From the IMG/VR virus record IMGVR_UViG_3300032167_000039: DNA of 64,000 nucleotides, one strand, 5' to 3'. Under the pieces are notes generated by a model. The model was given only the letters and a program-made list of their open reading frames with translations, was not told the origin of the DNA and did not search any database. Below, one piece after another: positions 5,754 to 49,124 of this stretch. Numbering within the stretch: position 1 is the stretch's first letter; each line of letters begins with the position of its first letter. The translations under genes and the position numbers were made by a program. This DNA comes from a virus (Duplodnaviria > Caudoviricetes).

Positions 5754-5996
5754 ATGAATGACTATCAAAAGAAAATTTTATTTTACATGTTAATACCTCA
5801 AGTAAAATCAATAGACTATATTTATGAGATTGAGAATGATTTTGCCGCGGCGCGATTTTATTTAAAAGATAAAGCTTTTGTTAAAATACCTGAATCTTTT
5901 GAAGACAAAGAAGTTAATTTAATTGAGGCAACTTGTTTTAATGGAAAGTCTTTAACGGAAGTAATAATACCAGATACAGTGAGCGAGGTGGAATAA
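5754..5996 (+). CDS. Small BspA-type LRR protein
   Basis: GAGGTG SD before ATG 5754; LTEVIIPDTV motif. Confidence 0.6.
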   Translation: MNDYQKKILFYMLIPQVKSIDYIYEIENDFAAARFYLKDKAFVKIPESFEDKEVNLIEATCFNGKSLTEVIIPDTVSEVE

Positions 5997-28720: not shown

Positions 28721-28787
28721 GAGGGATAAAGTTAGAGCCTCCACGTGGTGTCCCTTGGTAATGGTTGATAACCAGCAGAATTCTAAC
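28721..28787 (+). ncRNA. HDV-like self-cleaving ribozyme
   Basis: P1 gagggat/gtccctt (G1.U), P2 gttaga/tctaac, P3 gcc/ggt, L3 tccacgt, P1.1 gg, P4 tggtt/aacca, J4/2 gCagaa. Confidence 0.85.
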
Positions 28788-29115: not shown

Positions 29116-29191
29116 TGGAATGTCGGCAAGTGGCTAAGCCAGCAGGTTTTGATCCTGCCATTCGGGGGTTCGAATCCCTCCATTCCAACCA
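29116..29191 (+). tRNA. tRNA-Gln(UUG)
   Basis: Cloverleaf, CCA. Confidence 0.92.
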
Positions 29192-29229
29192 ACCAACCAA
29201 CTATTAATTACTTATTAAAGGTGATATTA

Positions 29230-29637
29230 ATGCAGACAAAAATTTGTACAAAATGTGGAAAGGAATATTCAATTGAAGAGTTTAATTGGAGAGATAAGAA
29301 AAAAGGAAGTCGCAGATCTGAATGTAAATATTGTCATTCTAAATATATGAGAGATAAATATGCACAGAAACAAAAGATAGTACAAGAATTGAAAAAAGAT
29401 TCTTATTGTGCGAAGTGCGGTGATACAAGAGAATATATCTTAGATTATCATCATATTGACCCTTCTATAAAAGAAAATACAGTAGCGAGATTGGTTAGTA
29501 ATTCATATGGTATGGATAAAGTTTTAGCTGAAATTGATAAGTGTATTTTACTTTGTGCAAATTGCCATAGAGAATTCCATTATTTTAATAAGGAGAAGAA
29601 TATTTCTTTAGAAGATTATTTAAAACAACTCACTTGA
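29230..29637 (+). CDS. HNH endonuclease
   Basis: CxxC pairs, LDYHHIDP..CILLCANCHREFH. Confidence 0.85.
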   Translation: MQTKICTKCGKEYSIEEFNWRDKKKGSRRSECKYCHSKYMRDKYAQKQKIVQELKKDSYCAKCGDTREYILDYHHIDPSIKENTVARLVSNSYGMDKVLAEIDKCILLCANCHREFHYFNKEKNISLEDYLKQLT

Positions 29638-29683
29638 CAAAAATCACGAAATGTGATATAATATTTATAGTGAGTTAAGAAAT

Positions 29684-29759
29684 GCGGGCGTAACTCAGTT
29701 GGTAGAGTATCGTCTTGATAAGGCGGAAGTCACAGGTTCAATCCCTGTCGCCCGTACCA
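29684..29759 (+). tRNA. tRNA-Ile(GAU)
   Basis: Cloverleaf, CCA. Confidence 0.92.
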
Positions 29760-29818
29760 TACTCTATTTGTTAGGTCTCTTAGGACACCAAGACCGGTGT
29801 CGGCAGATAGGGTAACCA
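29760..29818 (+). ncRNA. Small ACCA-ended pseudoknotted hairpin RNA
   Basis: 13-bp closing stem + ACCA; gacacc/ggtgtc hairpin whose loop aagacc pairs with ggtct. Confidence 0.5.
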
Positions 29819-29821
29819 AAT

Positions 29822-29898
29822 GCCGCGGTAGCTCAGTTGGTAGTAGCAGAGGACTGAAAATCCTCGTGTCGGCAGTTCGATTCTGCCCCGCGGCACCA
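29822..29898 (+). tRNA. tRNA-Phe(GAA)
   Basis: Cloverleaf, CCA. Confidence 0.93.
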
Positions 29899-29955
29899 AT
29901 AAAATCTTTGGCTCGGCGGTAGCCATTGATACCGCCACAACCTCTTTCTGAAGAT

Positions 29956-30033
29956 GCAGGTGTAGCATAATTGGTGAATGCACTCCCCTTATAAGAGAGC
30001 GATTGCTGAGTTCGAATCTCGCCACCTGTACCA
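29956..30033 (+). tRNA. tRNA-Ile(UAU)
   Basis: Loop CTTATAA, CCA. Confidence 0.85.
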
Positions 30034-30035
30034 TA

Positions 30036-30171
30036 AAGACATTAATAGCAAAGAACGGTCAGTAAAACCGCCGACGAAAGTCTACGCTAGTTCGAATCCA
30101 TGCCTTCCTCACCATTATATGAGGAAGTAGTCAAGTGGTTAAAGACAGCGGTCCGAACTAATAATGTCTTG
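30036..30171 (+). ncRNA. Y-like cassette 1: permuted tRNA-Tyr
   Basis: aagacatta/taatgtctt stem; GTA loop, variable arm, T arm, cttcctcACCA, linker, gaggaag, D arm, gcggtc. Confidence 0.85.
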
Positions 30172-30235
30172 AGTAATTAACCCACTTGACTTTTTATAAA
30201 AATTATGTTATAATATTTATAGAGAGTTGAGAAAT

Positions 30236-30310
30236 GCACCCATAGTTTAGTTGGAAAAACGGTAGATTTGTAATCTTCTGTCCCCTGTTCGAGTCAGGGT
30301 GGGTGCTCCA
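30236..30310 (+). tRNA. tRNA-Thr(UGU)
   Basis: Cloverleaf, CCA. Confidence 0.9.
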
Positions 30311-30375
30311 AAATTTCGCCAAGAAAACTTACCACGAAGAAGTTTAAATGGTTTATAATCGTGGAACCTCTTTCT

Positions 30376-30451
30376 GCGCCCGTAACTCAGTTGGTAGAGT
30401 ATCACACTTTTAATGTGAGAGTCACGAGTTCGAGCCTCGTCGGGCGCACCA
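30376..30451 (+). tRNA. tRNA-Lys(UUU)
   Basis: Cloverleaf, CCA. Confidence 0.93.
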
Positions 30452-30458
30452 TTTAAAT

Positions 30459-30534
30459 GCATCTTTAGCTTAGTTGGTAAAGCAACTGACTCTTAATCAG
30501 AAGACCATAGGTTCAAATCCTGTAAGATGCACCA
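30459..30534 (+). tRNA. tRNA-Lys(CUU)
   Basis: Cloverleaf, CCA. Confidence 0.92.
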
Positions 30535-30617
30535 GTCGAAAGGCGATATGAAAAGGATGGCGAGTGTTGGAGTAAGAAACAACCTCAACCCTGTCAACTT
30601 GGGTTAAAGTTGAATAT

Positions 30618-30712
30618 GGTGATGTGGGTGAGTCAGGCTTAAACCAGCAGATTGCTAATCTGTCGTCCGTCTTTATGGCGGACCGAAGGTTCGAATCCTT
30701 CCATCACCGCCA
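30618..30712 (+). tRNA. tRNA-Ser(GCU)
   Basis: Long variable arm, GCCA. Confidence 0.93.
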
Positions 30713-30713
30713 T

Positions 30714-30776
30714 AAGGCACATACAGCAAAATCTTAAGGAATAGTATTTTAAGCTGTGAATCTAAAGAGTGTCTTG
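30714..30776 (+). ncRNA. Y-like cassette 2: His-like anticodon hairpin
   Basis: aaggcac-atacagcaa...gtgtcttg; loop CTGTGAA. Confidence 0.7.
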
Positions 30777-30829
30777 ACTTTTTAAGAATTTTATGTTATA
30801 ATTATTACATAAAATTAAATATTAAACAT

Positions 30830-30902
30830 GGCGGGCTAGAGAAACGGTATCTCACCACCCTCATAAGGTGGAAATAAGTGGTTCGACTCCACTGCTCCGC
30901 AA
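30830..30902 (+). tRNA. tRNA (CAU) without encoded CCA
   Basis: ccacc-ctcataa-ggtgg, T arm; ends GCAA directly before a ribozyme. Confidence 0.8.
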
Positions 30903-30997
30903 CAGCATTTTCTTTACAAACCTCCACGTGGTAATGCTGGGGCAACGACACAATGGACGTGGGCTAGACACGACTCCACAGTGCGGCGAATGTAAAG
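30903..30997 (+). ncRNA. tRNA-adjacent HDV-like (theta-type position) ribozyme
   Basis: P1 cagcatt/aatgctg, P2 ctttaca/tgtaaag, P3 acc/ggt, L3 tccacgt, J4/2 ggCgaa. Confidence 0.85.
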
Positions 30998-31187
30998 CGT
31001 AATCTTTTCTACGATACAGAAAAGTGACTTCTGAGACTAACTAAGAAGGACTCATGGTTCAATAGGAGCTTAAAAATATAATCTTAGCGGAGACGGTTAC
31101 AATATTTCTGAGTCACGAAACGACAGGAAAGAAAATTAAAGATAGCTATCGGGTCGGTACACCTTGCTGCGGCAGAAGATACTACAT

Positions 31188-31262
31188 ACGGGTTTAGTTT
31201 AATGAAAAATGCCGACCTCCAAAGTCGTAAGATGATGGGTTCAAGTCCCTCAGCCCGTGCCA
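31188..31262 (+). tRNA. tRNA-Trp(CCA)
   Basis: Loop CTCCAAA, GCCA end. Confidence 0.85.
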
Positions 31263-31283
31263 AATACTTTGATAAAGTAATAT

Positions 31284-31362
31284 CGCCTCGTAGTTCAATT
31301 TTGGCTAGAGCATCGGATTGTCTCTCCGAAAGTTGTGGGTTCGAATCCCATCGGGGTGGCCA
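31284..31362 (+). tRNA. tRNA-Asp(GUC)
   Basis: tcgga-ttgtctc-tccga, GCCA end. Confidence 0.85.
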
Positions 31363-31437
31363 TAGGTTGTTTATTTCTCAATATTAGATTGAAGGGGTTC
31401 TCCAACCTTCGTAAAAAGAAGAACACATACATATATT

Positions 31438-31547
31438 AAGACACATACAGCCAAAGATTATTTATAATCTATTGTAGGTTCGATTCCTATCTTTTCAATT
31501 ATTTCGAAAAGTCGCCTAATGGTAGGGCAATTATTTAATGTGTCTTG
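31438..31547 (+). ncRNA. Y-like cassette 3: permuted tRNA body
   Basis: aagacacat/atgtgtcttg; T arm, loop-closed acceptor cttttc/gaaaag, D arm gcctaatggtagggc. Confidence 0.85.
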
Positions 31548-31553
31548 TTTTAT

Positions 31554-31631
31554 GGGGTAGTAGACGAGTGGTATTAAGTCATCACCCTCTCAAGGTGAAG
31601 ATCGTGGGTTCAAATCCCGCCTGCCTCACCA
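31554..31631 (+). tRNA. tRNA-Glu(CUC)
   Basis: Cloverleaf, CCA. Confidence 0.9.
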
Positions 31632-31638
31632 TTTAAAT

Positions 31639-31716
31639 GGCGCCATAGACGAGCGGTATAAGTCGCCACCCCTTCAAGGTGGAGAGCGTTGGGTTCAAAT
31701 CCCACTGGCGTCACCA
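31639..31716 (+). tRNA. tRNA-Glu(UUC), C at position 33
   Basis: ccacc-ccttcaa-ggtgg, CCA. Confidence 0.82.
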
Positions 31717-31717
31717 T

Positions 31718-31790
31718 TAGACACTTTCCAGCAATAAAATTTTAAGCTCTATTTATAAAAAGAACACTGCTTATCGTTCGAAGGTGTCTT
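31718..31790 (+). ncRNA. Y-like cassette 4
   Basis: agacacttt-ccagcaa...aaggtgtctt; inner loop TTTATAA. Confidence 0.7.
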
Positions 31791-31795
31791 ATTAT

Positions 31796-31869
31796 CGAGG
31801 AGTAGTTTAACGGTAAAATACTAGTTTTGGGAACTAGAGTCGGGGTTTCGACTACCCCCTCTTCGACCA
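31796..31869 (+). tRNA. tRNA-Pro(UGG)
   Basis: Cloverleaf, CCA. Confidence 0.88.
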
Positions 31870-31875
31870 ATAGAT

Positions 31876-31952
31876 GTGGTAGGTAGCTTAATTGGTAAAG
31901 CGCATGGTTGTGGCCCATGAAGCTGCGAGTTCGAATCTCGTCCTTCCACCCA
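31876..31952 (+). tRNA. tRNA-His(GUG)
   Basis: G-1:C73, CCA. Confidence 0.9.
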
Positions 31953-31986
31953 TACTATCTATAATTATTATGGAAAGTTAAGAAAT

Positions 31987-32069
31987 GCGGATATGGTGGA
32001 ATTGGTAGACACGCTGTCTTGAGGGGGCAGTGAGCAATCGTTCGGGTTCAAATCCCGATATCCGCACCA
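31987..32069 (+). tRNA. tRNA-Leu(GAG)
   Basis: Cloverleaf, CCA. Confidence 0.92.
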
Positions 32070-32184
32070 TTAACTTAGACGGCCGACTAAGTATAAATAA
32101 AGGGGTGCATGACGTTTTGCTGTTTTCCGAAGAGGGCATTAAAGACAGAAAAAACAGCATACTAAATAGAAAGGAGAGGTAGCT

Positions 32185-32688
32185 GTGAATACTAAAATAT
32201 TTCATCGAGGTAATGGCGAGCCTGTTACTTATAGTGAAATGATGAAGTTAATTGCAGACTATATTAGCAAAGATACAAATCAAGAGTATGAAATCACTGT
32301 TGGTACAGATAGCCAAAACCATAGTAAAACAAAAATGGTAGAAGTTATCGCAATCCACTGTGTTGGACATGGCGGCATCTTCTTCTATCGGACGGATTTT
32401 ATTCGAAAGATTAAATCTCTTAAAGAAAAGATATTTGAAGAGACTTCAAGAAGTCTTGAGAATGCTCAAGGATTACTTGATGAAGTTGGATTTATTCTTC
32501 TTGAAAAGGAAATTGATATTGAAGAGTTAAATCTTCATTTTAAAATCCATTGTGACATTGGTCATTATGGAAAGACTTCAACTCTAATTAAAGAGATTGT
32601 GTCTTGGGTTCATTCTTGTGGTTACGAAGCGGTAATTAAACCTGATAGTTACGCCGCCTCAGGAATTGCAAATAAGATTAGCAAATAA
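32185..32688 (+). CDS. RNase H-like YkuK/DUF458 family protein
   Basis: VGTDSQ, GGIFFY, EETSRSL, IHCDIG, IKPDSYAAS.IA. Confidence 0.85.
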   Translation: MNTKIFHRGNGEPVTYSEMMKLIADYISKDTNQEYEITVGTDSQNHSKTKMVEVIAIHCVGHGGIFFYRTDFIRKIKSLKEKIFEETSRSLENAQGLLDEVGFILLEKEIDIEELNLHFKIHCDIGHYGKTSTLIKEIVSWVHSCGYEAVIKPDSYAASGIANKISK

Positions 32689-32699
32689 AGGAGAATTAT

Positions 32700-32888
32700 A
32701 TGACAGATAAAGAGAAGCTTGATGCATTTTTTGAATATACTCTTGATGCTGAAAGATACTGGCGGCAAAGAGCAAAAGATGGATTTGATAAATACGTATG
32801 TGCTTATCATTTAATGGCTATACAGGATATTCTCCAGTTCGCAGAAGTGGAATTGGGTATACCATATAAGCAATTACCGCTTAATTAA
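32700..32888 (+). CDS. Small protein, paralogue of 33382
   Basis: MTDKEKLD..AIQDILQFAE. Confidence 0.6.
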   Translation: MTDKEKLDAFFEYTLDAERYWRQRAKDGFDKYVCAYHLMAIQDILQFAEVELGIPYKQLPLN

Positions 32889-33032
32889 ATAATGCTGCCC
32901 GTCCCGGGGCGTGCCCCTTCTCCATGCGACCCTCCTGTGTGGGCATAAATTGCGATGCAAATGTGGATATAATACGGGGAACTGATGTACAAGCAAGGGT
33001 TTCTATTTTGTCGTCATTTGGCGGCGAAAGAT

Positions 33033-33111
33033 GCGGGATTGATGGAATTTAGGTATACATACTTGCCTTAGAAGCAAGGTTTTAGGGGTTCGAGTCCCCT
33101 ATCCCGTACCA
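33033..33111 (+). tRNA. tRNA-Leu(UAG), short variable arm
   Basis: cttgc-cttagaa-gcaag, ACCA. Confidence 0.88.
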
Positions 33112-33113
33112 TT

Positions 33114-33238
33114 AAGACCTATACTGCAAACTTTCTTATATGCTTTGGGAGCCGTAGGTTAGAGGTTCGAGCCCTCTTCTCTCCACCAATATGGGGAGAT
33201 AGCTCAATTGGATAGAGCGACGTATTTAATGGGTCTTG
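33114..33238 (+). ncRNA. Y-like cassette 5: permuted tRNA with Pro (UGG) loop
   Basis: aagaccta/tgggtcttg; TTTGGGA, T arm, tctctccACCA, atat, ggggaga, D arm. Confidence 0.85.
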
Positions 33239-33243
33239 TTTAT

Positions 33244-33321
33244 GGCGGCGTAGCATAGTTGGTCAAATGCGACTGCTTCATACGCAGTAGACCATAGGTT
33301 CGAATCCTATCGCCGCCACCA
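33244..33321 (+). tRNA. tRNA-Met(CAU)
   Basis: Cloverleaf, CCA. Confidence 0.92.
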
Positions 33322-33381
33322 GTATGTTGACAAAACTTCCGAAATATGATATAATATTTATAGTGATTAAGAAAAGAGGTT

Positions 33382-33597
33382 ATGAAAATGAGTGATACAG
33401 AAGCACTTGATATTCTTCTTTCTTACATAGAAAGACTTGAGGATAATTATATTCAAATTTTATCAGAATGTAGTAATGAAGCATATCCTTTGTATAGCGG
33501 AGGACTTTCTGCGATTATGGATATATTAAATTTTGCAGAAAAGGATTTGGGATTGTTAGTTAAATGTAACCCACTTGACTTTTCTTCTGAAATATGA
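33382..33597 (+). CDS. Small protein, paralogue of 32700
   Basis: MSDTEALD..AIMDILNFAE. Confidence 0.6.
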   Translation: MKMSDTEALDILLSYIERLEDNYIQILSECSNEAYPLYSGGLSAIMDILNFAEKDLGLLVKCNPLDFSSEI

Positions 33598-33623
33598 TAT
33601 AATATTTATAGTGATTAAGAAAT

Positions 33624-33747
33624 GCGATTGTAGCCCAACAGGCAGAGGCAATGGACACAGGATTAAAAGACTTTGATTGGGGCAGTACCAATATCCTGTA
33701 CCATTAAAATCCATTTAGTGTGGGTTCGAATCCCATCAATCGCACCA
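33624..33747 (+). tRNA. tRNA-Leu(UAA) interrupted by a 47-nt insert between positions 32 and 33
   Basis: Removing 33657-33703 restores atgga-cttaaaa-tccat and a complete cloverleaf. Confidence 0.88.
33657..33703 (+). ncRNA. Nested mini-tRNA (acceptor stem + T arm + ACCA)
   Basis: acaggat/atcctgt 7 bp, attgg-ggcagta-ccaat, ACCA. Confidence 0.8.
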
Positions 33748-33749
33748 AT

Positions 33750-33826
33750 CTTCCATTAGCCCAATTGGTAGAGGCAATATGCTCAAACCGTATTCAGTCT
33801 CAGTTCGAATCTGAGATGGAAGACCA
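33750..33826 (+). tRNA. tRNA-Leu(CAA), short variable arm
   Basis: Loop CTCAAAC, ACCA. Confidence 0.85.
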
Positions 33827-33830
33827 TTCT

Positions 33831-33966
33831 AAGACCTTTACAGCGAAAAACTTTTTCTAAAAGAATTGCTTGTTAAGCCGTGTGTTGGAGGTTCGAATCC
33901 TTCCTCTGGATATGATCCAGAGTAGCTCAAGTGGTAGAGCAACGACCCTCTTAAGAAAAGGTCTTG
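33831..33966 (+). ncRNA. Y-like cassette 6: permuted tRNA-Asn
   Basis: aagaccttt/aaaggtcttg; TTGTTAA, T arm, ctctgga-tatga-tccagag, D arm. Confidence 0.87.
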
Positions 33967-33972
33967 TTAATT

Positions 33973-34048
33973 GGCTCTATAGCCAAGTGGGTTAAGGCGT
34001 CTGACTGCAAATCAGAAGTCCCCTGTTCGAATCAGGGTAGAGCCTCCA
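33973..34048 (+). tRNA. tRNA-Cys(GCA)
   Basis: U73-CCA. Confidence 0.92.
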
Positions 34049-34055
34049 ATTAAAT

Positions 34056-34130
34056 GCCCTCATAATACAAAGGATAGTATAGGGACCTTCTAAGTCTCAT
34101 ATTCCAGTTCAATTCTGGATGAGGGTACCA
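34056..34130 (+). tRNA. tRNA-Arg(UCU)
   Basis: Cloverleaf, CCA. Confidence 0.9.
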
Positions 34131-34133
34131 AAT

Positions 34134-34223
34134 GGCTGGGTGCCCAAGTGGTCATAAGGGCGTAGACCTGAAATCTTCTGTGGTGTAACAGCCCCGTGGG
34201 TTCGAATCCCACCCCAGCCGCCA
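34134..34223 (+). tRNA. tRNA-Ser(UGA), C at position 33
   Basis: Long variable arm, loop CCTGAAA, GCCA. Confidence 0.82.
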
Positions 34224-34371
34224 TAAACAATCGCCCGCCGCCGAAATTATTAGAGGAAGTTATTTACTTTTTCTAAAATTTTTTACAAAGAAAGTTCGGC
34301 GGCGAGTAGGTTGACAAAATTTTCAAAATATGCTATAATAGTTATAGTAAAGTTCGAAAGGAGAAATTAAG

Positions 34372-34503
34372 ATGAAGAGACGAGAAGATATTGTTTTGAG
34401 AATTGAGAAGTTGAAGACCAAGCCTGTGGAAAACGCAAGACTTATCCGTAAGTGGGAACGTATTCTGCGAAATTTCGATAGGGTTGATAATTCAAATACT
34501 TGA
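34372..34503 (+). CDS. Small basic protein (43 aa)
   Basis: Promoter + AAGGAG SD; MKRREDIVLRIEKLK... Confidence 0.55.
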   Translation: MKRREDIVLRIEKLKTKPVENARLIRKWERILRNFDRVDNSNT

Positions 34504-34539
34504 CTTTTCTTACGGAATGTGATTTAATTATATTAATGA

Positions 34540-34599
34540 AAGACGAAAACAGCAATCTTAAACATCTGATTTGGGATCTGATAAGTTAAATTCGTCTTG
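34540..34599 (+). ncRNA. Y-like cassette 7: Pro-like anticodon hairpin
   Basis: aagacgaa-aacagcaa...ttcgtcttg; loop TTTGGGA. Confidence 0.75.
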
Positions 34600-34605
34600 A
34601 TATTT

Positions 34606-34682
34606 GGGATAGTAGCTCTAACGGTTAGAGCAGGAAGCTGTTAACTTCAAGGCTATAGGTTCGAATCCTATCTATCCCGCCA
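34606..34682 (+). tRNA. tRNA-Asn(GUU)
   Basis: Cloverleaf, GCCA. Confidence 0.9.
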
Positions 34683-34686
34683 ATAT

Positions 34687-34760
34687 GCAGCATTGGTGTA
34701 ACGGTAACATCTCTGCCTTCCAAGCAGATGTTGGGGGTTCGAGTCCCCTATGCTGCTCCA
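34687..34760 (+). tRNA. tRNA-Gly(UCC)
   Basis: Cloverleaf, TCCA. Confidence 0.92.
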
Positions 34761-34765
34761 TTTAT

Positions 34766-34900
34766 GGGAGATAGCCTCACGCCCAGACCTAACCAGTCAA
34801 TAGGAAAACAACCTTGTAGGAACGGGCGGTAACTGGCGCCGTATAGTCCAGACGATTGTTGCTGTGATTGTTGGCAAGCGAAAGTAGGAGTGGTTCTCCA
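34766..34900 (+). ncRNA. Unknown structured RNA ending in CCA
   Basis: ggaga/tctcc closing stem; cgccc/gggcg and ccagt/actgg crossing helices. Confidence 0.5.
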
Positions 34901-34913
34901 AACAATCAAATAT

Positions 34914-35000
34914 GGGTAGATAAACCGTAAGTGGTAGCGGGTGTGACTGTAAATCACATGCCTTTGTGCTCGGGTGGTTCGACTCCATCTCTGCCCACCA
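34914..35000 (+). tRNA. tRNA-Tyr(GUA)
   Basis: Variable arm, ACCA. Confidence 0.9.
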
Positions 35001-35039
35001 TAGAGTTTATTGGTTTTCTCCATAGCAAAAACCAAATTA

Positions 35040-35138
35040 AAGACAGTACCAGCCACTTTATTATAATTTTTAAAATGATATAGTGAAAATATTTTTAATC
35101 AGGTTTGTCCTCCTGACATAGTTTATAATACTGTCTTG
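35040..35138 (+). ncRNA. Y-like cassette 8: Asp-like hairpin
   Basis: aagacagta-ccagcca...tactgtcttg; tcagg/cctga with GTC in the loop. Confidence 0.7.
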
Positions 35139-35338
35139 TAAAAATTAAATGAACTTAGCACGCCTCTTATTAATGCGGACCACGCTAAGTCTTATAGGTC
35201 GGCAGTGGGTAAAACCTTGGAAGTGCCTTACCCTTAAAAGTTAAATATTCCTAATTAGTTAGTCACGGACTTGTGCTGCTGTAGTTCGTGCCGCCCAAAC
35301 AGCAGTGGGTGCAATTGGTTGAAAGTCCAAGGAAATTA

Positions 35339-35410
35339 TTCGCTGTAGTTTAATAAAAACCTACTTCTGTCAAAAGGGAGTATAATGCGAGTGTGGCCTC
35401 GTCGGCTAAT
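35339..35410 (+). pseudogene. Degenerate tRNA-Asp-like sequence
   Basis: D arm, CTGTCAA loop, non-canonical T loop, no CCA. Confidence 0.45.
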
Positions 35411-35478
35411 AATTTCTAAAATGACACTAAAGAGAAATACTTTCACGAGGTAGTGTTGTTCTTACTAAACTTTCTCAA

Positions 35479-35564
35479 AAGACGGTTTCAGCAAACTTTA
35501 AATGGTTAAATAAAAATTCTTTTGTAAAATTTTTAGAGAAGGTTCAATTCCTTCAATCGTCTTG
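35479..35564 (+). ncRNA. Y-like cassette 9: Tyr-like loop + T arm
   Basis: aagacggtt-tcagcaa...aatcgtcttg; TTGTAAA; gaagg-ttcaatt-ccttc. Confidence 0.75.
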
Positions 35565-36582: not shown

Positions 36583-38019
36583 ATGAGTTTTGTAGATGGA
36601 TTTAATGCAATGACAACCATGAAGACTACGGAAAATGGCGCGGTAGCTTATTCTAAACTTGATAGTGATGTTTTATCTCTTTTTGCCGTAGTTGGCGGTA
36701 TGAGAAAGCGTGATGAAGCTGATATTGTTCAGATGTATCATGCGGCTCGTAAGGAAGACAAGGAGCTTGCTGACAAGATTGTCCTCTATGCTCGTGATGT
36801 GCGTGGAGTAGGTCTTGGTGAGCGTAGAATCGGTAAGATTCTTCTTAAGGCTCTTGCTTATATTGATCGTGCAAAGGTGGAGAGAAATTTCCAGACCTTT
36901 GTAATGAATGGTCGTTTCGATGACCTTTATGCCCTTGAGGGAACCCCTGCAGAGACTGCTATGTGGCAGTTTATGAAGGATACTCTTCTTAAGGATGCGG
37001 CAGCAATGAAGGTTGGTAAGCCTATTAGTCTCGCCGCAAAGTGGATGAAGTCTATTAACACTTCTTCTGCTGAATCTAAGAGACTTGCAAGAAAGTTCTG
37101 TACTGTTGCAGGTATCTCTGAGAGAACTTATCGTAAGACCCTTGCGGCCCTTCGTAAGTATTCTAATGTAGTTGAGGTTAAGATGTCTACTAATGAGTGG
37201 GAGGCTATCAACTTCGAGGCAGTACCTTCTGTCGCAATGAAGAGATATTCTACTGCTTTTGGCAAGCATTGTCCTAATGCTTTTACTCAGTATAAGCACG
37301 AGCTGACTACTGGTGAAGCAAAGGTAAATGCTCAGACTCTTTATCCTTATGACATCACCTACCAGTTCATGTACGGTGGCAATGCCGATAAGGCTATCCT
37401 TGAAGCTCAATGGAAGGCACAAAAGAATTGGTTCAAGGAAGATGCTAAGATTGTAGTTGCAGCAGATGTTTCTGCTTCTATGACCGGAATGCCTATGGCG
37501 GCGTCAGTGGGTCTTGCAATGTATGCAGCAACTTTTAATCAAGGGTCCTATCACGGATATTATCTTACTTTTACAGATAAGCCTTATTTTTACAAGATTG
37601 ATGAAAATGAGAGTCTTGAAACTAATATTAGAAAAGTTATGAGAAACGTTGGGTATAATACTGAAATGGATAAAATGTTTGAAGCTATTTATGAAATGGC
37701 AGTAAGAGAAAATGATGCACCTGACGCGCTTGTTATTGTTTCTGATATGGAGATTGATAGATTTATGAGAGCCAATGCTTGTGATGATATCATTACAAAA
37801 TGGGTGAATAAGTTCAGAAATGCTGGGCTTGAATGTCCAAAGATGATTCTTTGGAATGCAGAGAGTAGACAGAACACATATCTTGCCCGTTCTAATAATC
37901 CTTATGTTGCTTTTGTAAGCGGTTGTTCTGCTAGTACTTTTGGTAATCTTACTGAATTAATTTCAATGAGTGCTTACGAAGCAATGGTTAAGATTCTTAG
38001 CCAGTACGAGTTTGTATAA
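36583..38019 (+). CDS. TROVE/vWA Ro60-like protein (DUF2828 type)
   Basis: TENGA, YARDVRG.GLGER, LAAKW, VPSVAM, LYPYD, MIDAS DVSASM and SDME, WN. Confidence 0.85.
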   Translation: MSFVDGFNAMTTMKTTENGAVAYSKLDSDVLSLFAVVGGMRKRDEADIVQMYHAARKEDKELADKIVLYARDVRGVGLGERRIGKILLKALAYIDRAKVERNFQTFVMNGRFDDLYALEGTPAETAMWQFMKDTLLKDAAAMKVGKPISLAAKWMKSINTSSAESKRLARKFCTVAGISERTYRKTLAALRKYSNVVEVKMSTNEWEAINFEAVPSVAMKRYSTAFGKHCPNAFTQYKHELTTGEAKVNAQTLYPYDITYQFMYGGNADKAILEAQWKAQKNWFKEDAKIVVAADVSASMTGMPMAASVGLAMYAATFNQGSYHGYYLTFTDKPYFYKIDENESLETNIRKVMRNVGYNTEMDKMFEAIYEMAVRENDAPDALVIVSDMEIDRFMRANACDDIITKWVNKFRNAGLECPKMILWNAESRQNTYLARSNNPYVAFVSGCSASTFGNLTELISMSAYEAMVKILSQYEFV

Positions 38020-38076: not shown

Positions 38077-38317
38077 AAGACCTTTAATCAGCAATCTTAT
38101 AGATGATAACAGAGAAAATACATTATTTCATGACTATTTGTCAGTGGGAGCGCGTAGCCTAAGCGAGATATTAGGACTTTATCTTCGGATAATGGAGTAC
38201 CAATACTTATTATTGGCGTTCTATAGAACGAGAACTATAGCGTTTTCTTGGAGCGAGATACTAAGACGGCGGATCGCTTGTAAAGATACCTAAAGTCTCA
38301 TAGAGCAGAAGGTCTTG
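38077..38317 (+). ncRNA. Y-like cassette 10 (long, multi-hairpin payload)
   Basis: aagacctt-taatcagcaa...aaggtcttg directly after the TROVE gene. Confidence 0.7.
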
Positions 38318-39470: not shown

Positions 39471-40124
39471 ATGGAATTAAAATGTTTATCAATTATTACA
39501 AATTTTGGGTGTCATTATAAGTGCCCTTATTGTATTGTAAAAAAGAATGGTATCAACATTCCAAAAACAACAGTGAAATCTCTTGATACTCTATTAGAAA
39601 CTTATAAATCAGGAGGATATGATTACATTTCAATTTCAGGTGGCGGCGATCCGATGTTTGAATTTGATAAACACAAAGATTTTTATGATAGATTGTTTTC
39701 GATTTGCAGAGAAAATGATATAAAAATCGAGCTTCACACTTCTTACATCAAAGAAATTGAAAATAAACTTCCTCTTGAATTATTTAATAGAATTGTTTTT
39801 CACTGCAATACAATTGATGATGTTTTTGAAGCGGAACAGACGGATTGTAGAGACATTCTTAAAAGAGTGGTTTTTGTTATAGAAGACAGAATGACTATTG
39901 ATTATTTACTGACTATTCGTAATGTTGTTAACAATAGTAAAACAATTGATCAATTGTCTTTTAGACAAAGAGTAGATGAAAATTACAATATTTCATATCA
40001 TTTACATGACGCCTTAAAAATGGGACACTTATATAAACAATGGTATTATATCGAACAAGCGGATTACAATACCTACTTCGTAGATGGGCAAACTAAGAAA
40101 AAATATGAGGATTTTAAGAAGTAA
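39471..40124 (+). CDS. Radical SAM protein
   Basis: CHYKCPYC, ISGGGDP. Confidence 0.85.
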   Translation: MELKCLSIITNFGCHYKCPYCIVKKNGINIPKTTVKSLDTLLETYKSGGYDYISISGGGDPMFEFDKHKDFYDRLFSICRENDIKIELHTSYIKEIENKLPLELFNRIVFHCNTIDDVFEAEQTDCRDILKRVVFVIEDRMTIDYLLTIRNVVNNSKTIDQLSFRQRVDENYNISYHLHDALKMGHLYKQWYYIEQADYNTYFVDGQTKKKYEDFKK

Positions 40125-43439: not shown

Positions 43440-44363
43440 GTGGCTGCGATTATCGAAATGTTAATCGGGCTTCCTTAGCCTGGTTGCGGTAAATCAACAT
43501 ATGCAAAAAATCTTATGAAGCAGAATCCCAATATTGTAGTTGTATCTTCCGATGCAATTCGCAAGGAGCTTTATGGTTCTGAAGAGGATCAGTCTCATAA
43601 TCAGGAGGTCTTTAACGAAGTTTTCAAAAGAACTTGCGCTGCGATTAAGAATAATAAGCATTGTATTATTGACGCAACTAATCTTTCTCGTAAGCGTAGA
43701 ATTGCTTTTCTTAAGCAGTTCAATAACTGCGAGAAGAGAGCTACTGTATTTGCAATCCCTTTTGAGGTTTGTTGTGAGCGTAATAATTCTCGTGAAAGAA
43801 CTGTTCCTCAGTATGCAATGGATAGAATGTATCGCTCTTTTGAGCCGCCGCACTGGGCAGAGGGATTTGATTTTATTGAAGTAATTCATTATGAGAACCC
43901 GGCCCTTTCTATTGAAGACGTGCTTGCAGAGAATATCAAGTGTGAACACGATAATCCCCATCATTCTCTTAGCTGTGGAAAGCATTGTCTTGCCGCAGAG
44001 GAAGCCGCAGGAATTATTTGTGAGAATGAATATTGGGATTCAGTAACGACTCATCTCATTGCCAAGGCAGCACGCTATCATGATATGTCTAAGTATAAGT
44101 GTAAGGTATTTCATAATATGAAGGGCGAACCTACAGATATTGCTCATTACTATAATCATGAGAATGTTTCTGCATATGACTATATGGCATATGAGGCGGG
44201 GATGGAGCCGGAGTATGATACAATTGTTATTGCAAACTTGATTGCAAATCATATGGTATTCTATACTGGTGAAGCGGCAATCCAGAAGAGAAGAGATATT
44301 TATGGAGTAGGATTTTGGTCAATGCTCGAGGTTTTGAATAGAGCCGACAGGGCAGCGCACTAA
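43440..44363 (+). CDS. Polynucleotide kinase (AAA_33) + HD domain, with in-frame TAG in the P-loop
   Basis: SD+GTG 43440, MLIGLP*PGCGKST, SSDAIR, IIDATN, HD, HE. Confidence 0.85.
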
Positions 44364-45642: not shown

Positions 45643-46719
45643 ATGCTTAATTTGCAGACTTTTATTCGTGAAAATGAAAACTGGAGAGAGCTTATTTCTG
45701 AGAAGCCCTATTGCATTAAGGTAACTGAAAAGGAAGATCTGGTCTGCTTTAAGTATTCTCAGATTGATTCCGATTTTAAGGAGCCTTTGGTAAGAGAGTG
45801 CCGCGGCATTATTCTTGAAAAGGATACTTGGAATGTAGTGGCCTATGCTTTCAATAAGTTCGGTAACTATGGAGAGTCTTACGCAGACGAAATCGACTGG
45901 GCTTCTGCTCGTGTTCTTGAAAAGGTAGATGGCTCTCTTATTAAGGTTTATTTCCATAATGGCGCTTGGTGTGTAGGTACCAATGGAACCATTGATGCAA
46001 GCGATGCAGAACTTTCTGCGCCGCCCTATGAAACCTTTATGGAATTATTCGATGTTGCGGCAGATGTGTGCGGTCTTGATTATGATAGACTTGATCCTCA
46101 TTATACCTACATCTTTGAACTTCGTTCTCCTTACAATAAGGTTGTAGTACCTTATGAAGATATTCGTATCGTCCATATCGGTACTCGTAACAACATTACT
46201 TATGAGGAAGTGGAGGTAGATATTGGTATTGAAAAGCCTAAGCAGTATATGCTTTCTTCTCTTGATGATTGTATTGCTATGGCGGCGACTTTTGACTTTA
46301 CACAGGAAGGCTTTGTCGTAGTTGATAAGAACTATCATCGTGTCAAGGTTAAATCTGAAGATTATGTTCGTGTACATCGTCTTGCCAATAACGGCTCTAT
46401 TACACTTGAAAAAGCGATTGACCTTATTCGTACAAATGAACTGGAAGAATTTCTTGTATATTGCCCTCAGTATACAGATTTTATCAATAATGTTCGTCTT
46501 CGTCTTGATAAATTCCATTCTGATATTTATTTTAATGTTAATATGGCACTGATCGAAAAAATGGATTGTGAAACTCGTAAGGATTTTGCGGCGGTAGCGA
46601 AAACCTTTAAGTATCCTATGGTATGGTTTAAAGTTTATGAAACAAAGTCTTTTGATATTGATGCATGGATTAACTCTTTAACTACAGCAAAGCTAGCTAC
46701 ATATCTTGAAAAGTATTAA
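45643..46719 (+). CDS. T4 Rnl1-type RNA ligase
   Basis: RECRGIIL, KFGN, EKVDGS, FEL, EGFVV, RVKVK. Confidence 0.9.
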   Translation: MLNLQTFIRENENWRELISEKPYCIKVTEKEDLVCFKYSQIDSDFKEPLVRECRGIILEKDTWNVVAYAFNKFGNYGESYADEIDWASARVLEKVDGSLIKVYFHNGAWCVGTNGTIDASDAELSAPPYETFMELFDVAADVCGLDYDRLDPHYTYIFELRSPYNKVVVPYEDIRIVHIGTRNNITYEEVEVDIGIEKPKQYMLSSLDDCIAMAATFDFTQEGFVVVDKNYHRVKVKSEDYVRVHRLANNGSITLEKAIDLIRTNELEEFLVYCPQYTDFINNVRLRLDKFHSDIYFNVNMALIEKMDCETRKDFAAVAKTFKYPMVWFKVYETKSFDIDAWINSLTTAKLATYLEKY

Positions 46720-48093: not shown

Positions 48094-48185
48094 AGAATTT
48101 TCTTGGCGACTAAATACTTTCTGTCCTTATTGGACAGAAACACTTGCACTATTCATTAACTGGATTTGCGAAAGGAGTTAAGAAA

Positions 48186-49124
48186 ATGAGTGAGATGAAG
48201 AAGTATGTAGATATTGAAAGAGTTAAGGAGTCTTATGCTTCTACTTTTGAAGAGGGAGAGAATATTGTAATTCAGGTTAAGATCGATGGCTCCAACGCAT
48301 CTATCGCATATGACGAGGAGAACGACTGTCTTGTGGCATTTTCTCGCCGCCAAAAGCTCAATGAGCAGAACATACTCAATGGCTTTTGGAATTGGGTTCA
48401 GACGCTCAATGTAGAGCATTTTAAGAAGATTCTTGGCACTCGTTATATCATTTTTGGCGAGTGGCTTACGCCCCATAGTGTAAAGTATCCCGAAGATATG
48501 TATAAGAAGTTCTATATGTTTGATGTGTGGGATAAGGAAACAGAGCAGTATCTCCCACAGGAAGATGCACTTAATATTTATGATGCTCTCCACTATTATC
48601 TCCCTCATTATGTTTGGACGCTTTATAGTGGTCCTTTCGTATCTTGGGAACATACCCTTGGTTTTCTTAAGGAGAATATCTATGGTGAGTCTCCTTGTAT
48701 GGAGGGTATCGTAATTAAGCGTCAGTCTAAGCTGTGGTCTAAGTCTTCTCGCTTGCCTTACTATGTTAAGATTGTAAATGAGAAGTTTTCTGAGGTTCAT
48801 AGCTCTAAGCCTAAGGTAATTGACCCCGCAAAGCTCGCGGCAAAGGAAGCTGAGCAGGCGGCAGTAGCAGAGATTGTTACAAAGCGTCGTTGCGAAAAGC
48901 AGATTCAGAAGTTTATCGAAGACGGTATTATCCCCGAGGATTGGGGCGGCGAGTCTATGAAGGAAATTTCTAAGCGTTTGCCTAAGGCTATCTATGAGGA
49001 TTGTCGTAAGGAAGAGCCTGAGATTGTGGCGGCGAACGAGAACTTCGGTAAGATTTGTGCAAGTCTTGCTATGAAGCATGCTCGTGAAATGCTTGATGAT
49101 AAGTCTAAGTTTTTAGGGACTTGA
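48186..49124 (+). CDS. Rnl2-type RNA ligase
   Basis: KIDGSN, FGEW, FDV, EGIVIK, K..NEKFSE. Confidence 0.88.
   Translation: MSEMKKYVDIERVKESYASTFEEGENIVIQVKIDGSNASIAYDEENDCLVAFSRRQKLNEQNILNGFWNWVQTLNVEHFKKILGTRYIIFGEWLTPHSVKYPEDMYKKFYMFDVWDKETEQYLPQEDALNIYDALHYYLPHYVWTLYSGPFVSWEHTLGFLKENIYGESPCMEGIVIKRQSKLWSKSSRLPYYVKIVNEKFSEVHSSKPKVIDPAKLAAKEAEQAAVAEIVTKRRCEKQIQKFIEDGIIPEDWGGESMKEISKRLPKAIYEDCRKEEPEIVAANENFGKICASLAMKHAREMLDDKSKFLGT

What the first reader, a model, noticed from the sequence alone, without database searches (positions are those of the whole stretch)
30036..35564. Cassette payloads display all four GUN (queuosine-family) anticodons
Seen: payload loops are CAGTAAA and TTGTAAA (Tyr), CTGTGAA (His), TTGTTAA (Asn) and TTGTCCT (Asp), plus TTTGGGA twice (Pro) and TTTATAA twice (Ile UAU). 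CTGTCAA (Asp) also occurs at ~28665 and ~35367. Established: Tyr/His/Asn/Asp tRNAs are the substrates of TGT and of colicin E5-type anticodon nucleases. Inference: the cassettes are decoys for a GUN-specific nuclease or modifier. Caveat: several stems are imperfect, and short AT-rich loops can arise by chance.
Basis: inference. Interest (0 to 1): 0.75.

Follow-up and report, generated by a model that had tools for sequence, protein, structure and literature searches.

The report
Phage Y-like RNAs displaying anticodon arms

Summary
Only some sit in credible anticodon-type loops: c1, c5, c6 and c7, and c9 only in relatives. The Asp loop has no closing pair and is not conserved, and the His loop is marginal. 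Within this window, "all four GUN" is not above chance.

The cassettes are Y RNA-like genes. Each has a constant handle (a covarying terminal stem plus ACAGCAA[A]) around tRNA-derived cargo. They are punctuated by tRNA genes and flank a gene whose predicted fold matches Ro60 (TROVE + vWA).

Across 148 cassette clusters from viral metagenomes, hairpins with a CU-NNN-AA loop occur 27 times against 0.6 in shuffles, so anticodon-arm mimicry is real. The triplets are diverse: GUU, UUU and GAA are commonest, and GUG and GUC are absent. As a class GUN is not enriched (9 of 72 against 9.4 expected). Orthologues toggle GUU/UUU, GUG/GUU and UGG/UAG.

A broader role as decoy or tether in the conflict over tRNA cleavage stays plausible but untested.

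This scan has noted the same handle-plus-cargo family on other phage DNA several times. I found no paper describing it.

The parts
30036..30170 (+). Cassette c1. Handle AAGACAUUA/UAAUGUCUU plus AUAGCAAA. Cargo is a circularly permuted tRNA-like body: hairpin CGGU-CAGUAAA-ACCG, a long variable-arm hairpin, a degenerate T arm, a 7-bp closed acceptor with encoded ACCA, and a D arm.
   Evidence: Homologues in six other phage contigs keep the CAGUAAA loop and show compensatory changes at 31:39. It starts 3 nt after tRNA-Ile(UAU).
30714..30775 (+). Cassette c2, short: handle plus one weak hairpin UUAAG-CUGUGAA-UCUAA (the His-like loop).
   Evidence: R1 56 bits; it is a training sequence. The positional homologue L001:1840-1901 has a perfect AUAGA-CUGUUAA-UCUAU. 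L228 keeps the loop but loses the closing pairs.
31438..31546 (+). Cassette c3: handle plus a permuted tRNA-like body. The pre-T hairpin is AGAUU-AUUUAU-AAUCU with a 6-nt loop.
   Evidence: YrlA 27 bits; R1 E = 2.7e-5.
31718..31790 (+). Cassette c4, short: handle UAGACAC/GUGUCUU plus CCAGCAA. It has no convincing anticodon-type hairpin around UUUAUAA.
   Evidence: R1 E = 0.022. It lies between tRNA-Glu and tRNA-Pro with gaps of 1 and 5 nt.
33114..33237 (+). Cassette c5: handle plus a permuted tRNA-like body with encoded ACCA. The anticodon arm is composite (3 bp in trans, 2 bp in cis) with loop UUUGGGA.
   Evidence: (YrlA 33 bits). The loop is UUUAGGA in L225.
33831..33965 (+). Cassette c6, a paralogue of c5, with loop UUGUUAA. 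It gives the best Rfam YrlA match in the window.
   Evidence: 45 bits against a threshold of 69. Relatives L001-L003 have UUUUUAA, with compensatory changes in the acceptor stem, the T stem and the ACG/CGU pairing.
34540..34598 (+). Cassette c7, short: handle plus AUCUGA-UUUGGGA-UCUGAU (5 of 6 pairs).
   Evidence: R1 58 bits; it is a training sequence. It ends 7 nt before tRNA-Asn.
35040..35137 (+). Cassette c8: handle plus two hairpins.
   Evidence: Relatives have AGUUGG-CAAAU-CCAACU at this place instead.
35479..35563 (+). Cassette c9: handle, then a hairpin with a 9-nt loop CUUUUGUAA, then a T-arm-like hairpin GAAGG-UUCAAUU-CCUUC.
   Evidence: R1 E = 4.5e-6. Relatives have a 7-nt CUGUAAA loop on a 7-bp stem.
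38077..38316 (+). Cassette 10: the same handle (AAGACCUUU ... AAGGUCUU, with AUCAGCAA) around a cargo of about 215 nt, directly downstream of the Ro60-like gene.
   Evidence: Read. It is 87-89% identical in relatives.
36583..38019 (+). Ro60-like RNA-binding protein (DUF2828 + DUF7788; TROVE-type ring plus a vWA domain with a DxSxS MIDAS motif). It is the presumed partner of the cassettes.
   Evidence: Pfam; PHROG 850; AlphaFold2 pLDDT 91.7; top Foldseek matches are Ro60 1YVR/2I91, Rsr 2NVO and phage phiLo Ro60 9L5Y at probability 1.0; invariant D295, S297 and S299.
29116..35000 (+). tRNA array: 25 ARAGORN tRNAs plus one interrupted tRNA at 33624-33744. Cassettes c1-c7 lie inside it and c8-c9 follow directly (35040-35563).
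43515..44363 (+). Polynucleotide kinase-like gene (RNA repair context).
45643..46719 (+). T4 Rnl1-family RNA ligase gene.
48144..49124 (+). Rnl2/DRB0094-type RNA ligase gene.

Best explanation
The cassettes are a phage family of Y RNA-like small RNAs.

Constant part (the handle): a 9-10-bp helix formed by the RNA's two ends (AAGAC-NNNN / NNNN-GUCUU), followed on the 5' strand by single-stranded ACAGCAA(A). I infer that this handle docks the RNA on the Ro60-like TROVE+vWA protein encoded at 36583-38019.

Variable part (the cargo): built from tRNA parts. It can be a bare anticodon stem-loop, an anticodon arm plus a T arm, or a whole tRNA body that is circularly permuted so that the handle leaves from the anticodon stem and the acceptor end is closed.

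Release: the RNAs are made as parts of the tRNA polycistrons and are freed by the processing of the neighbouring tRNAs.

The 'payload loops' are therefore genuine tRNA-type anticodon loops (C/U32, U33, NNN, A37, A38). The triplet is a free, fast-changing variable, with at least 15 different anticodons in the family, and is not a GUN set.

Likely mechanism (inferred): as in known Ro60/Y RNA particles, the handle binds the ring protein and the cargo recruits or occupies another factor. Here that factor would be a protein that reads anticodon arms or tRNA bodies. In a phage carrying 25 tRNAs, a kinase and two RNA ligases, that factor is most probably a host tRNA-cleaving defence nuclease, which would be trapped or diverted, or a host RNA-processing enzyme.

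Shown: the handle, its covariation, the tRNA-type loops, the Ro60 fold, and the linkage. Inferred: binding, and the decoy or tether action.
For: Handle and covariation:
- All ten cassettes share the stem and the CAGCAA-type motif.
- In 20 short members, 6 of 9 handle pairs and 5 of 5 anticodon-stem pairs change on both sides. 94% of cells are paired, against 35-57% when the partner is slid (these sequences were chosen for pairing).
- Among raw pattern matches that did not require pairing, 88 of 197 had at least 4 of 5 variable stem positions paired. Chance would give about 7% by my own estimate.

Restriction to this region: covariance model R1 finds only the known cassettes in the 64-kb window.

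Linkage:
- 118 of 149 viral loci with a validated cassette hold tRNAs and 46 hold a DUF2828 gene. For 71 loci with an unpaired pattern match the numbers are 21 and 11.
- R1 finds the handle beside the DUF2828/Ro-like gene of Bacillus phage Tsamsa, Mycobacterium phage Krypton555, Enterococcus phage EFDG1 and E. coli phage Alf5.

Protein: the fold matches Ro60.

Resemblance to YrlA: c6, c5 and c3 score 45, 33 and 27 bits on Rfam YrlA. The model aligns the T arm, closed acceptor stem and D arm.

Anticodon-type loops: 27 of 148 clusters have CU-NNN-AA on at least 5 bp, against 0.64 in shuffles. Orthologues keep the stems through compensatory changes while the triplet changes.

Punctuation: cassette ends lie 1-7 nt from tRNA ends.

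Literature:
- Y RNA-like RNAs lie near Ro60 genes in bacteria and 22 phages (PMC4201824).
- Thermus phage phiLo Ro60 binds two phage-encoded Y-like RNAs and forms a complex with host PNPase (PMC12135203).
- A Ro60-like protein of phage Bas63, encoded next to its tRNA genes, counters the ppl defence (PMC11482910).
Against: - Nothing here shows binding or expression.
- The handle motif (ACAGCAA) is not the published GNCGAA(N)G or CGAA motif.
- All YrlA scores are below Rfam's threshold.
- S. Typhimurium YrlA has no anticodon loop (10.1101/312249), so these RNAs depart from the described family.
- In this window several anticodon arms are imperfect (c2, c7, c9), and the c1 T stem is degenerate.
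- In Tsamsa the cargo is plain hairpins, so an anticodon arm is not obligatory.
Confidence: 0.7

Rival explanations
1. One reading: the cassettes are decoys specifically for a nuclease or modifier that recognises the four GUN (queuosine-family) anticodons, such as a colicin E5-type nuclease or TGT.
For: - GUA-type loops occur in c1 and c9, GUU in c6 and GUG in c2.
- Asn GUU is the commonest triplet in the family: 6 of 30 against 0.9 expected.
- CUGUUAA and CUGUAAA are identical to the loops of this phage's own tRNA-Asn and tRNA-Tyr.
Against: - The Asp loop has no closing pair in that frame and is not conserved. The His stem is weak and loses its closing pairs in a close relative.
- As a class GUN is at background, 9 of 72 against 9.4. 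GUG and GUC are 0 against 4.85.
- Orthologues switch GUU/UUU three separate times, and also GUG/GUU.
- Half of the credible loops in the window and relatives are Pro, Leu, Lys or Ile-like.
- The c1 lineage conserves A33.
- There is no TGT homologue in a complete relative.
Confidence: 0.05
2. The tRNA-bodied cassettes (c1, c5, c6, c3) are circularly permuted or split tRNA genes. After RNase P and 3' processing, and perhaps ligation by the phage ligases, they would give working tRNAs, so the triplets would be real decoding anticodons.
For: - c1 and c5 encode a 7-bp acceptor stem followed by ACCA.
- M. smegmatis YrlA is cut by RNase P and receives CCA (PMC4201824).
- c1 has a long variable arm, as bacterial tRNA-Tyr does.
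- The phage encodes Pnk, Rnl1 and Rnl2.
- Some family members are called as tRNAs by ARAGORN.
Against: - All displayed anticodons duplicate tRNAs the phage already encodes.
- c6 and c3 lack CCA.
- c1 has A33 and a degenerate T stem.
- c5 has G1-C72, unlike this phage's own tRNA-Pro, which has C1-G72.
- Five of the nine cassettes have no tRNA body at all yet share the same handle. The handle follows the Ro60-like gene even where the cargo is a plain hairpin.
Confidence: 0.1
3. The stems are only processing or insulating punctuation of the tRNA transcripts, such as nuclease sites or terminator-like hairpins. On this reading the loops have no function of their own and there is no link to Ro60.
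For: - The cassettes abut tRNAs and promoters.
- Several cargo hairpins are poorly conserved, for example c8 and c4.
Against: - The single-stranded ACAGCAA motif is conserved from actinobacterial to proteobacterial phages, always next to a DUF2828 gene.
- The cargo is enriched about 40-fold for tRNA-type loops and more than 100-fold for T loops.
- The RNA elements are 92-97% identical between phages whose Ro60-like proteins are 76-80% identical.
Confidence: 0.07
4. The anticodon-like loops are chance products of short AT-rich hairpins.
For: - In the window alone the pattern is not significant.
- The 7-mers are common in the window.
Against: - At family level, CU-NNN-AA loops on at least 5 bp occur 27 times against 0.64 +/- 0.8 in shuffles. 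Non-tRNA-type 7-nt loops are at chance.
- The stems covary in orthologues.
Confidence: 0.03

Closest known systems
YrlA-type bacterial and phage Y RNAs with Ro60/Rsr (Rfam RF02553; Chen et al. 2014, PMC4201824; Wang et al. 2018, bioRxiv 10.1101/312249)
   Same: - Encoded within a few kb of a Ro60-type gene, on the same strand.
- The 5' and 3' ends pair into a stem with a conserved purine-rich motif on the 5' strand.
- The cargo is a tRNA-like domain with a T arm, closed acceptor stem and D arm.
- Some members carry a 7-bp acceptor and CCA, like M. smegmatis YrlA.
   Different: - The motif is ACAGCAA, not GNCGAA(N)G.
- Scores are below Rfam's threshold (45 against 69 bits).
- The partner is a DUF2828-type Ro60-like protein, not a Pfam TROVE protein.
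- There are up to ten copies per genome, interleaved with tRNAs.
- Many members carry a true 7-nt anticodon-type loop, which S. Typhimurium YrlA lacks, or nothing but an anticodon arm.
Thermus phage phiLo Ro60 with its Y-like RNAs Yrl1 and Yrl2 (PMC12135203)
   Same: A phage-encoded Ro60 ring protein binds phage-encoded small RNAs that have a terminal stem and an internal conserved motif. An anti-defence role through a host factor (PNPase) has been proposed.
   Different: - There are two RNAs with a CGAA bulge.
- No tRNA-part cargo or anticodon arms are described.
- The protein fold is the same (9L5Y is among the top matches), but sequence identity is only about 15%.
Phage tRNAs as counter-defence against anticodon nucleases: T5 tRNA-Lys, Thr and Asn against PARIS AriB (PMC12409363); eLife 2023 e85183, seen by title and abstract only
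   Same: - Located in a tRNA array of a large phage.
- Anticodon arms of the types most often attacked (Lys UUU, Asn GUU, Thr) are the ones most often displayed.
- Changes concentrate in and around the anticodon loop.
   Different: Those are complete, chargeable tRNAs that replace cleaved host tRNAs. The cassettes have no free acceptor end in most cases and carry a protein-docking handle, so they cannot simply substitute in translation.
Circularly permuted tRNA genes of red algae (Cyanidioschyzon merolae; from my own knowledge)
   Same: The 3' half of a tRNA body precedes the 5' half, and the two are joined by a short linker across the acceptor end.
   Different: - Those mature through a bulge-helix-bulge endonuclease and a circular intermediate into working tRNAs.
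- No such motif is seen here.
- The same handle also carries cargo that is not a tRNA body.
GUN-anticodon recognisers: tRNA-guanine transglycosylase and colicin E5
   Same: Some cassettes show U33-G34-U35 in a 7-nt loop: c6, c2, and c9 in relatives.
   Different: - There is no specificity for the four GUN triplets in the window's lineage or in the family.
- c1 has A33.
- A complete relative has no phage TGT gene.

Membership tests
YrlA / Y RNA-like (Rfam RF02553) | Encoded within about 4 kb of a Ro60 orthologue, on the same strand | tested here: met
   c8 and c9 lie 1.0-1.5 kb upstream and cassette 10 lies 58 nt downstream of the Ro60-like gene. c1-c7 lie 2-6.5 kb upstream. All are on the + strand.
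YrlA / Y RNA-like (Rfam RF02553) | Score at or above Rfam's gathering threshold (69 bits) | tested here: not met
   The best scores are 45.1 bits (c6), 32.8 (c5) and 27.3 (c3). The short cassettes have no match at E up to 5.
YrlA / Y RNA-like (Rfam RF02553) | Terminal stem with the GNCGAA(N)G motif near the 5' end | tested here: inconclusive
   The stem is present and covaries. The motif is ACAGCAA(A), which agrees with the published motif at C and AA and has purine-for-purine changes elsewhere. c6 has AGCGAA. Rfam instead aligns c6's GAAUUGC to that part of the model.
YrlA / Y RNA-like (Rfam RF02553) | tRNA-like domain: T arm, closed acceptor-like stem, D arm | tested here: met
   Met for c1, c3, c5 and c6. 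Not met for c2, c4, c7 and c8. c9 has a T-arm-like hairpin only.
YrlA / Y RNA-like (Rfam RF02553) | Bound by the Ro60 orthologue | not testable with these tools
   Needs immunoprecipitation or gel shift.
Ro60 / TROVE proteins (for ORF 36583-38019) | HEAT-repeat ring plus a vWA domain with a MIDAS motif | tested here: met
   The model has pLDDT 91.7 and pTM 0.90. The top 13 Foldseek matches are Ro60, Rsr or phage Ro60, with TM up to 0.63 over the whole length. DxSxS is invariant in 32 homologues. There is no sequence-level match to PDB or to Pfam TROVE.
Anticodon stem-loop mimic | A stem of about 5 bp closing a 7-nt loop with U33 and a purine at 37 | tested here: met
   Family: 54 of 148 clusters against 15.9 +/- 3.7 in shuffles. 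For CU-NNN-AA, 27 against 0.64. Window: c5 and c6 (composite stem), c7 (one mismatch), and c1 (4 bp, but with A33). c9 meets it only in relatives.
GUN (queuosine-family) anticodon display | All four GUN triplets sit in sound anticodon-type loops | tested here: not met
   GUC lies in an 8-nt loop with no closing pair in that frame. GUG has one contiguous closing pair.
GUN (queuosine-family) anticodon display | Triplets conserved in homologous cassettes | tested here: not met
   c6 changes GUU to UUU, c2 changes GUG to GUU, c5 changes UGG to UAG, and the c8 loop is replaced. Two further GUU/UUU toggles occur in other lineages.
GUN (queuosine-family) anticodon display | GUN enriched over other anticodons in the family | tested here: not met
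   9 of 72 against 9.4 expected (P = 0.61). 7 of 30 in the strict set (P = 0.09), which is six Asn and one Tyr. His and Asp together are 0 against 4.85.
GUN (queuosine-family) anticodon display | Substrate of, or competitor for, TGT or a colicin E5-type nuclease | not testable with these tools
   Needs biochemical assays. Indirectly, there is no TGT homologue in the complete relative G001.

The most novel reading that the evidence does not exclude
The Ro60-like protein and its handle RNAs form a programmable trap. Each RNA shows the anticodon arm of one tRNA species to the host's tRNA-cleaving defence nucleases (PrrC-, AriB- or RloC-like). The Ro60-like ring then holds, blocks or hands over the captured enzyme or the cut RNA. 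Specificity would be reset by single-base changes in the displayed triplet, which would explain the repeated Lys/Asn toggles. This would be an RNA-based, modular anti-defence system carried by many unrelated large phages.
Probability: 0.25. Interest if true: 0.85.

Novelty: new variant of a known kind. Interest (0 to 1): 0.6.

Why it matters
Ro60/Y RNA particles are known in animals, bacteria and a few phages, but what the variable part of a bacterial or phage Y RNA engages is largely open.

Here the variable part is readable. It consists of tRNA pieces, often a bare anticodon arm, whose triplet changes between close relatives while the rest is held. The RNAs sit in the tRNA arrays of phages that also carry RNA-repair enzymes.

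This gives a concrete, testable idea for the function of a protein family (DUF2828) found in at least 707 sequenced phage records. Those records include cultured phages of E. coli, Bacillus, Enterococcus, Listeria, Staphylococcus and Mycobacterium. It also ties that family to the active field of tRNA-targeting phage defence.

The work also removes a tempting but wrong lead: queuosine/GUN specificity.

Tried and rejected
- **Window-only enrichment of GUN.** Not significant.
- **Taking loops from minimum-free-energy folds.** This missed many AT-rich anticodon arms. I replaced it with an explicit stem-plus-7-nt-loop scan with shuffles.
- **First, looser cassette definition.** It let in reverse-strand palindromes and one plain tRNA (L104). 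I tightened the motif and re-ran.
- **A simple fixed motif search in the window.** It was uninformative: 24 matches against 17.5 expected.
- **Nearest sequenced phages.** None share the region at DNA level.
- **phmmer of the protein against PDB.** No match. The Ro60 relation needed a fold comparison.
- **Whole genome of the window.** Not held. I therefore sought TGT only in one complete relative; QueC, QueD and QueE were not searched.
- **The radical-SAM gene at 39471-40124.** It is not a recognisable QueE.
- **The Annual Review on bacterial Ro60 (PMC10870794).** Not held.
- **Literature searches** for DUF2828, phage RNA decoys and Y RNAs with anticodon loops. They found no description of this family. 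The library is incomplete, so this is weak evidence of novelty.
- **Mobile-element reading (terminal inverted repeats).** Rejected: beyond AAGAC/GTCTT the two arms differ between copies but stay complementary, as expected for an RNA helix.

Full report
**What is at the coordinates**

The window is a 33%-GC phage-like sequence. It holds 25 tRNA genes between 29116 and 35000, plus an interrupted tRNA at 33624-33744. Nine elements lie among and just after these tRNA genes, and a tenth lies at 38077-38316. All share one frame:
- a terminal helix AAGAC-NNNN / NNNN-GUCUU;
- a CAGCAA-type motif directly 3' of the first strand.

**Are they anticodon loops, and is the GUN set more than chance?**

In the window alone the answer is mixed. 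Contiguous closing pairs around each 7-mer are 4 for c1; 2 for c5, c6 and c7; 1 for c2, c3 and c9; and 0 for c4 and c8.
- c5 and c6 gain three more pairs in trans (ACG with CGU). This gives a composite 5-bp stem at exactly the tRNA distance from the T arm, and the pairing covaries in relatives.
- c7 has 5 of 6 pairs.
- c3 has a 6-nt loop, c8 an 8-nt loop and c9 a 9-nt loop.

The 7-mers are common in this AT-rich DNA. With the lenient rule of at least 2 closing pairs, 19% of shuffles of the nine cassettes contain all four GTN triplets. The real cassettes lack GTC under that rule.

**What the cassettes are**

Rfam gives sub-threshold matches to YrlA, the bacterial Y RNA-like family, for c6 (45 bits), c5 (33) and c3 (27). 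The T arm, closed acceptor stem and D arm are aligned.

The ORF at 36583-38019 is DUF2828 + DUF7788 and PHROG 850, 'RNA-binding protein'.
- Its AlphaFold2 model has pLDDT 91.7.
- The model matches Ro60 of Xenopus and human, Rsr of Deinococcus and the Ro60 of Thermus phage phiLo. Probability is 1.0 and TM reaches 0.63 over the full length.
- The vWA MIDAS motif DxSxS is invariant in 32 homologues.

A covariance model built on the handle plus an anticodon arm (R1) finds only the known cassettes in the 64 kb.

Cassette ends lie 1-7 nt from the ends of neighbouring tRNAs. tRNA processing would therefore release them as discrete RNAs.

Downstream lie a polynucleotide kinase, an Rnl1-type ligase and an Rnl2-type ligase.

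**Relatives**

Four IMG/VR contigs with 76-80% identical Ro60-like proteins carry the same array. So do pig-gut contigs with 89-92% identical proteins.

- 149 of these loci hold cassettes with a paired stem.
- Of those 149, 118 hold tRNAs and 46 hold a DUF2828 gene within the few kb retrieved.
- Of the 71 loci with an unpaired pattern match, 21 hold tRNAs and 11 hold a DUF2828 gene.

R1 also finds the handle beside the DUF2828/Ro-like gene of four cultured phages from three bacterial phyla:
- Bacillus phage Tsamsa;
- Mycobacterium phage Krypton555, with a UUUCA-CUGCUAA-UGAAA arm;
- Enterococcus phage EFDG1;
- E. coli phage Alf5.

None of these elements is annotated in those records.

**Anticodon-arm mimicry is real at family level**

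I reduced the cassettes to 148 clusters with a strict motif. None coincides with a plain tRNA.

| Hairpin type (stem of at least 5 bp, 7-nt loop) | Observed clusters | Dinucleotide shuffles |
|---|---|---|
| U33 and R37 | 54 | 15.9 +/- 3.7 |
| CU-NNN-AA | 27 | 0.64 +/- 0.8 (maximum 3 of 200) |
| Other 7-nt loops | 58 | 57 |
| T loops | 55 | 0.3 |

Cargo types range widely:
- a bare anticodon arm (RNAs of about 60 nt);
- an anticodon arm plus a T arm;
- whole tRNA bodies in at least three circular permutations.

S. Typhimurium YrlA is described as lacking an anticodon loop (10.1101/312249). This is therefore a departure from the described family.

**The GUN test**

In the strict set the triplets are GUU 6, UUU 4, GAA 4, UCC 3, GGU 2 and GUA 1, plus single cases of ten others. 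There is no GUG or GUC.

In the wider set, GUN is 9 of 72. The 1231 tRNAs of the same loci predict 9.4 (P = 0.61). Asn alone is enriched (P = 0.002). His and Asp together are depleted, 0 against 4.85 (P = 0.007).

Orthologous cassettes change the triplet while keeping the rest:
- c6 is GUU in the window, L225 and L228, and UUU in L001-L003. The acceptor stem, the T stem and the trans ACG/CGU pairing show compensatory changes.
- c2 is GUG on a weak stem in the window, and GUU on a perfect stem in L001.
- c5 is UGG in the window and UAG in L225.
- The c8 hairpin is replaced.
- In other lineages, GUU/UUU toggles occur twice more, and UAU/UCU once.

The c1 lineage keeps CAGUAAA, with A33, in six phage lineages, and shows covariation at 31:39.

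A complete 167-kb relative has no TGT homologue.

It is met.

**How it probably works**

Shown:
- a conserved, covarying handle;
- tRNA-type cargo;
- a Ro60-fold neighbour;
- linkage of the three across distant phages.

Inferred by analogy with Ro60/Y RNA particles: the handle docks on the ring protein and the cargo engages a second factor. Three published cases support the analogy:
- Bacterial Y RNA tethers Rsr to PNPase (PMC4201824).
- Phage phiLo Ro60 binds two phage-encoded Y-like RNAs and forms a complex with host PNPase (PMC12135203).
- A Ro60-like protein of phage Bas63, encoded next to its tRNAs, counters the ppl defence (PMC11482910).

The cargo is an anticodon arm or a tRNA body. The most frequent triplets are Asn GUU and Lys UUU, with Thr also present. 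These are among the known targets of anticodon-directed defence nucleases such as PARIS AriB (PMC12409363). I therefore think the factor is most probably a tRNA-reading host enzyme, which is diverted, trapped or recruited. I give the decoy/trap version about 25-30%. The identification as Ro60-partner Y-like RNAs with a non-GUN anticodon display I put at about 70%.

**Rivals**

- **Working permuted tRNAs.** This is possible for c1 and c5, which have a 7-bp acceptor plus ACCA. It does not explain the shared handle on cargo without a tRNA body.
- **Mere processing punctuation.** This does not explain the conserved single-stranded motif, its fidelity to DUF2828 genes, or the tRNA-type loops.
- **Chance.** This is excluded at family level.

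**Limits**

- There are no expression or binding data.
- The covariation count used sequences selected for pairing. Searches give less biased orthologue comparisons.
- The literature library is incomplete.

**Earlier notes of this scan**

Follow-ups on other phage DNA describe the same handle-plus-tRNA-cargo family next to DUF2828. I reached the same reading before seeing those notes, and I tested the handle-DUF2828 linkage myself.

Noticed in passing
window 35140-35478: This noncoding stretch is 93-97% identical to relatives whose proteins are only 76-80% identical. It is probably another structured RNA. Rfam gives only a weak abiF-like hit at 35154-35190. One of the two CTGTCAA sites (35367) lies in it.
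   Followed up: partly
window 30036-30170 and homologues L199, L144, L224, L166, L178: The 3' strand of the c1 anticodon stem (ACCGC here, UCCGU in the others) can pair with either of two 5' strands. One is a cis strand just upstream (ACGGU / AUGGA). The other is a trans strand after the D arm (GCGGU / GCGGA). Both partners co-vary with it at 31:39, which suggests a two-state fold. The window's own c1 has a degenerate T stem, and the L001 copy is decayed.
   Followed up: partly
L031 vs L096; L044 vs L058; window c6 vs L001:6217-6349: Three independent orthologue pairs differ by a Lys(UUU)/Asn(GUU) switch at position 34 of the displayed loop. The stem is unchanged.
   Followed up: partly
L230:6423-6482, 6812-6872, 4261-4309, 5845-5929; L233:5679-5733, 5477-5527; L232:3809-3875; L231:5712-5779, 5878-5937: Unannotated handle RNAs lie next to the DUF2828/Ro-like genes of four cultured phages: Tsamsa, Krypton555, EFDG1 and Alf5. 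These phages are usable as experimental systems.
   Followed up: partly
window 30903-30997 and 28721-28786: There are two sub-threshold HDV-like ribozyme matches, at 34 and 26 bits against a threshold of 44. The first directly follows the tRNA-Met at 30831-30901.
   Followed up: no
window 33624-33744: Rfam calls a tRNA of 121 nt here (45 bits) that ARAGORN misses. It has an insert of about 47 nt in the anticodon loop region.
   Followed up: no
window 32185-32688: A PF04308 (YkuK-type RNase H-like) gene sits inside the tRNA/cassette array. It recurs in relatives at the same place.
   Followed up: no
window 14320-16506: A UvrD-type helicase gene is interrupted by an intein with a LAGLIDADG endonuclease domain.
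   Followed up: no
L006:158-447: A phage contig that carries cassettes also encodes a tmRNA (Rfam 82 bits).
   Followed up: no
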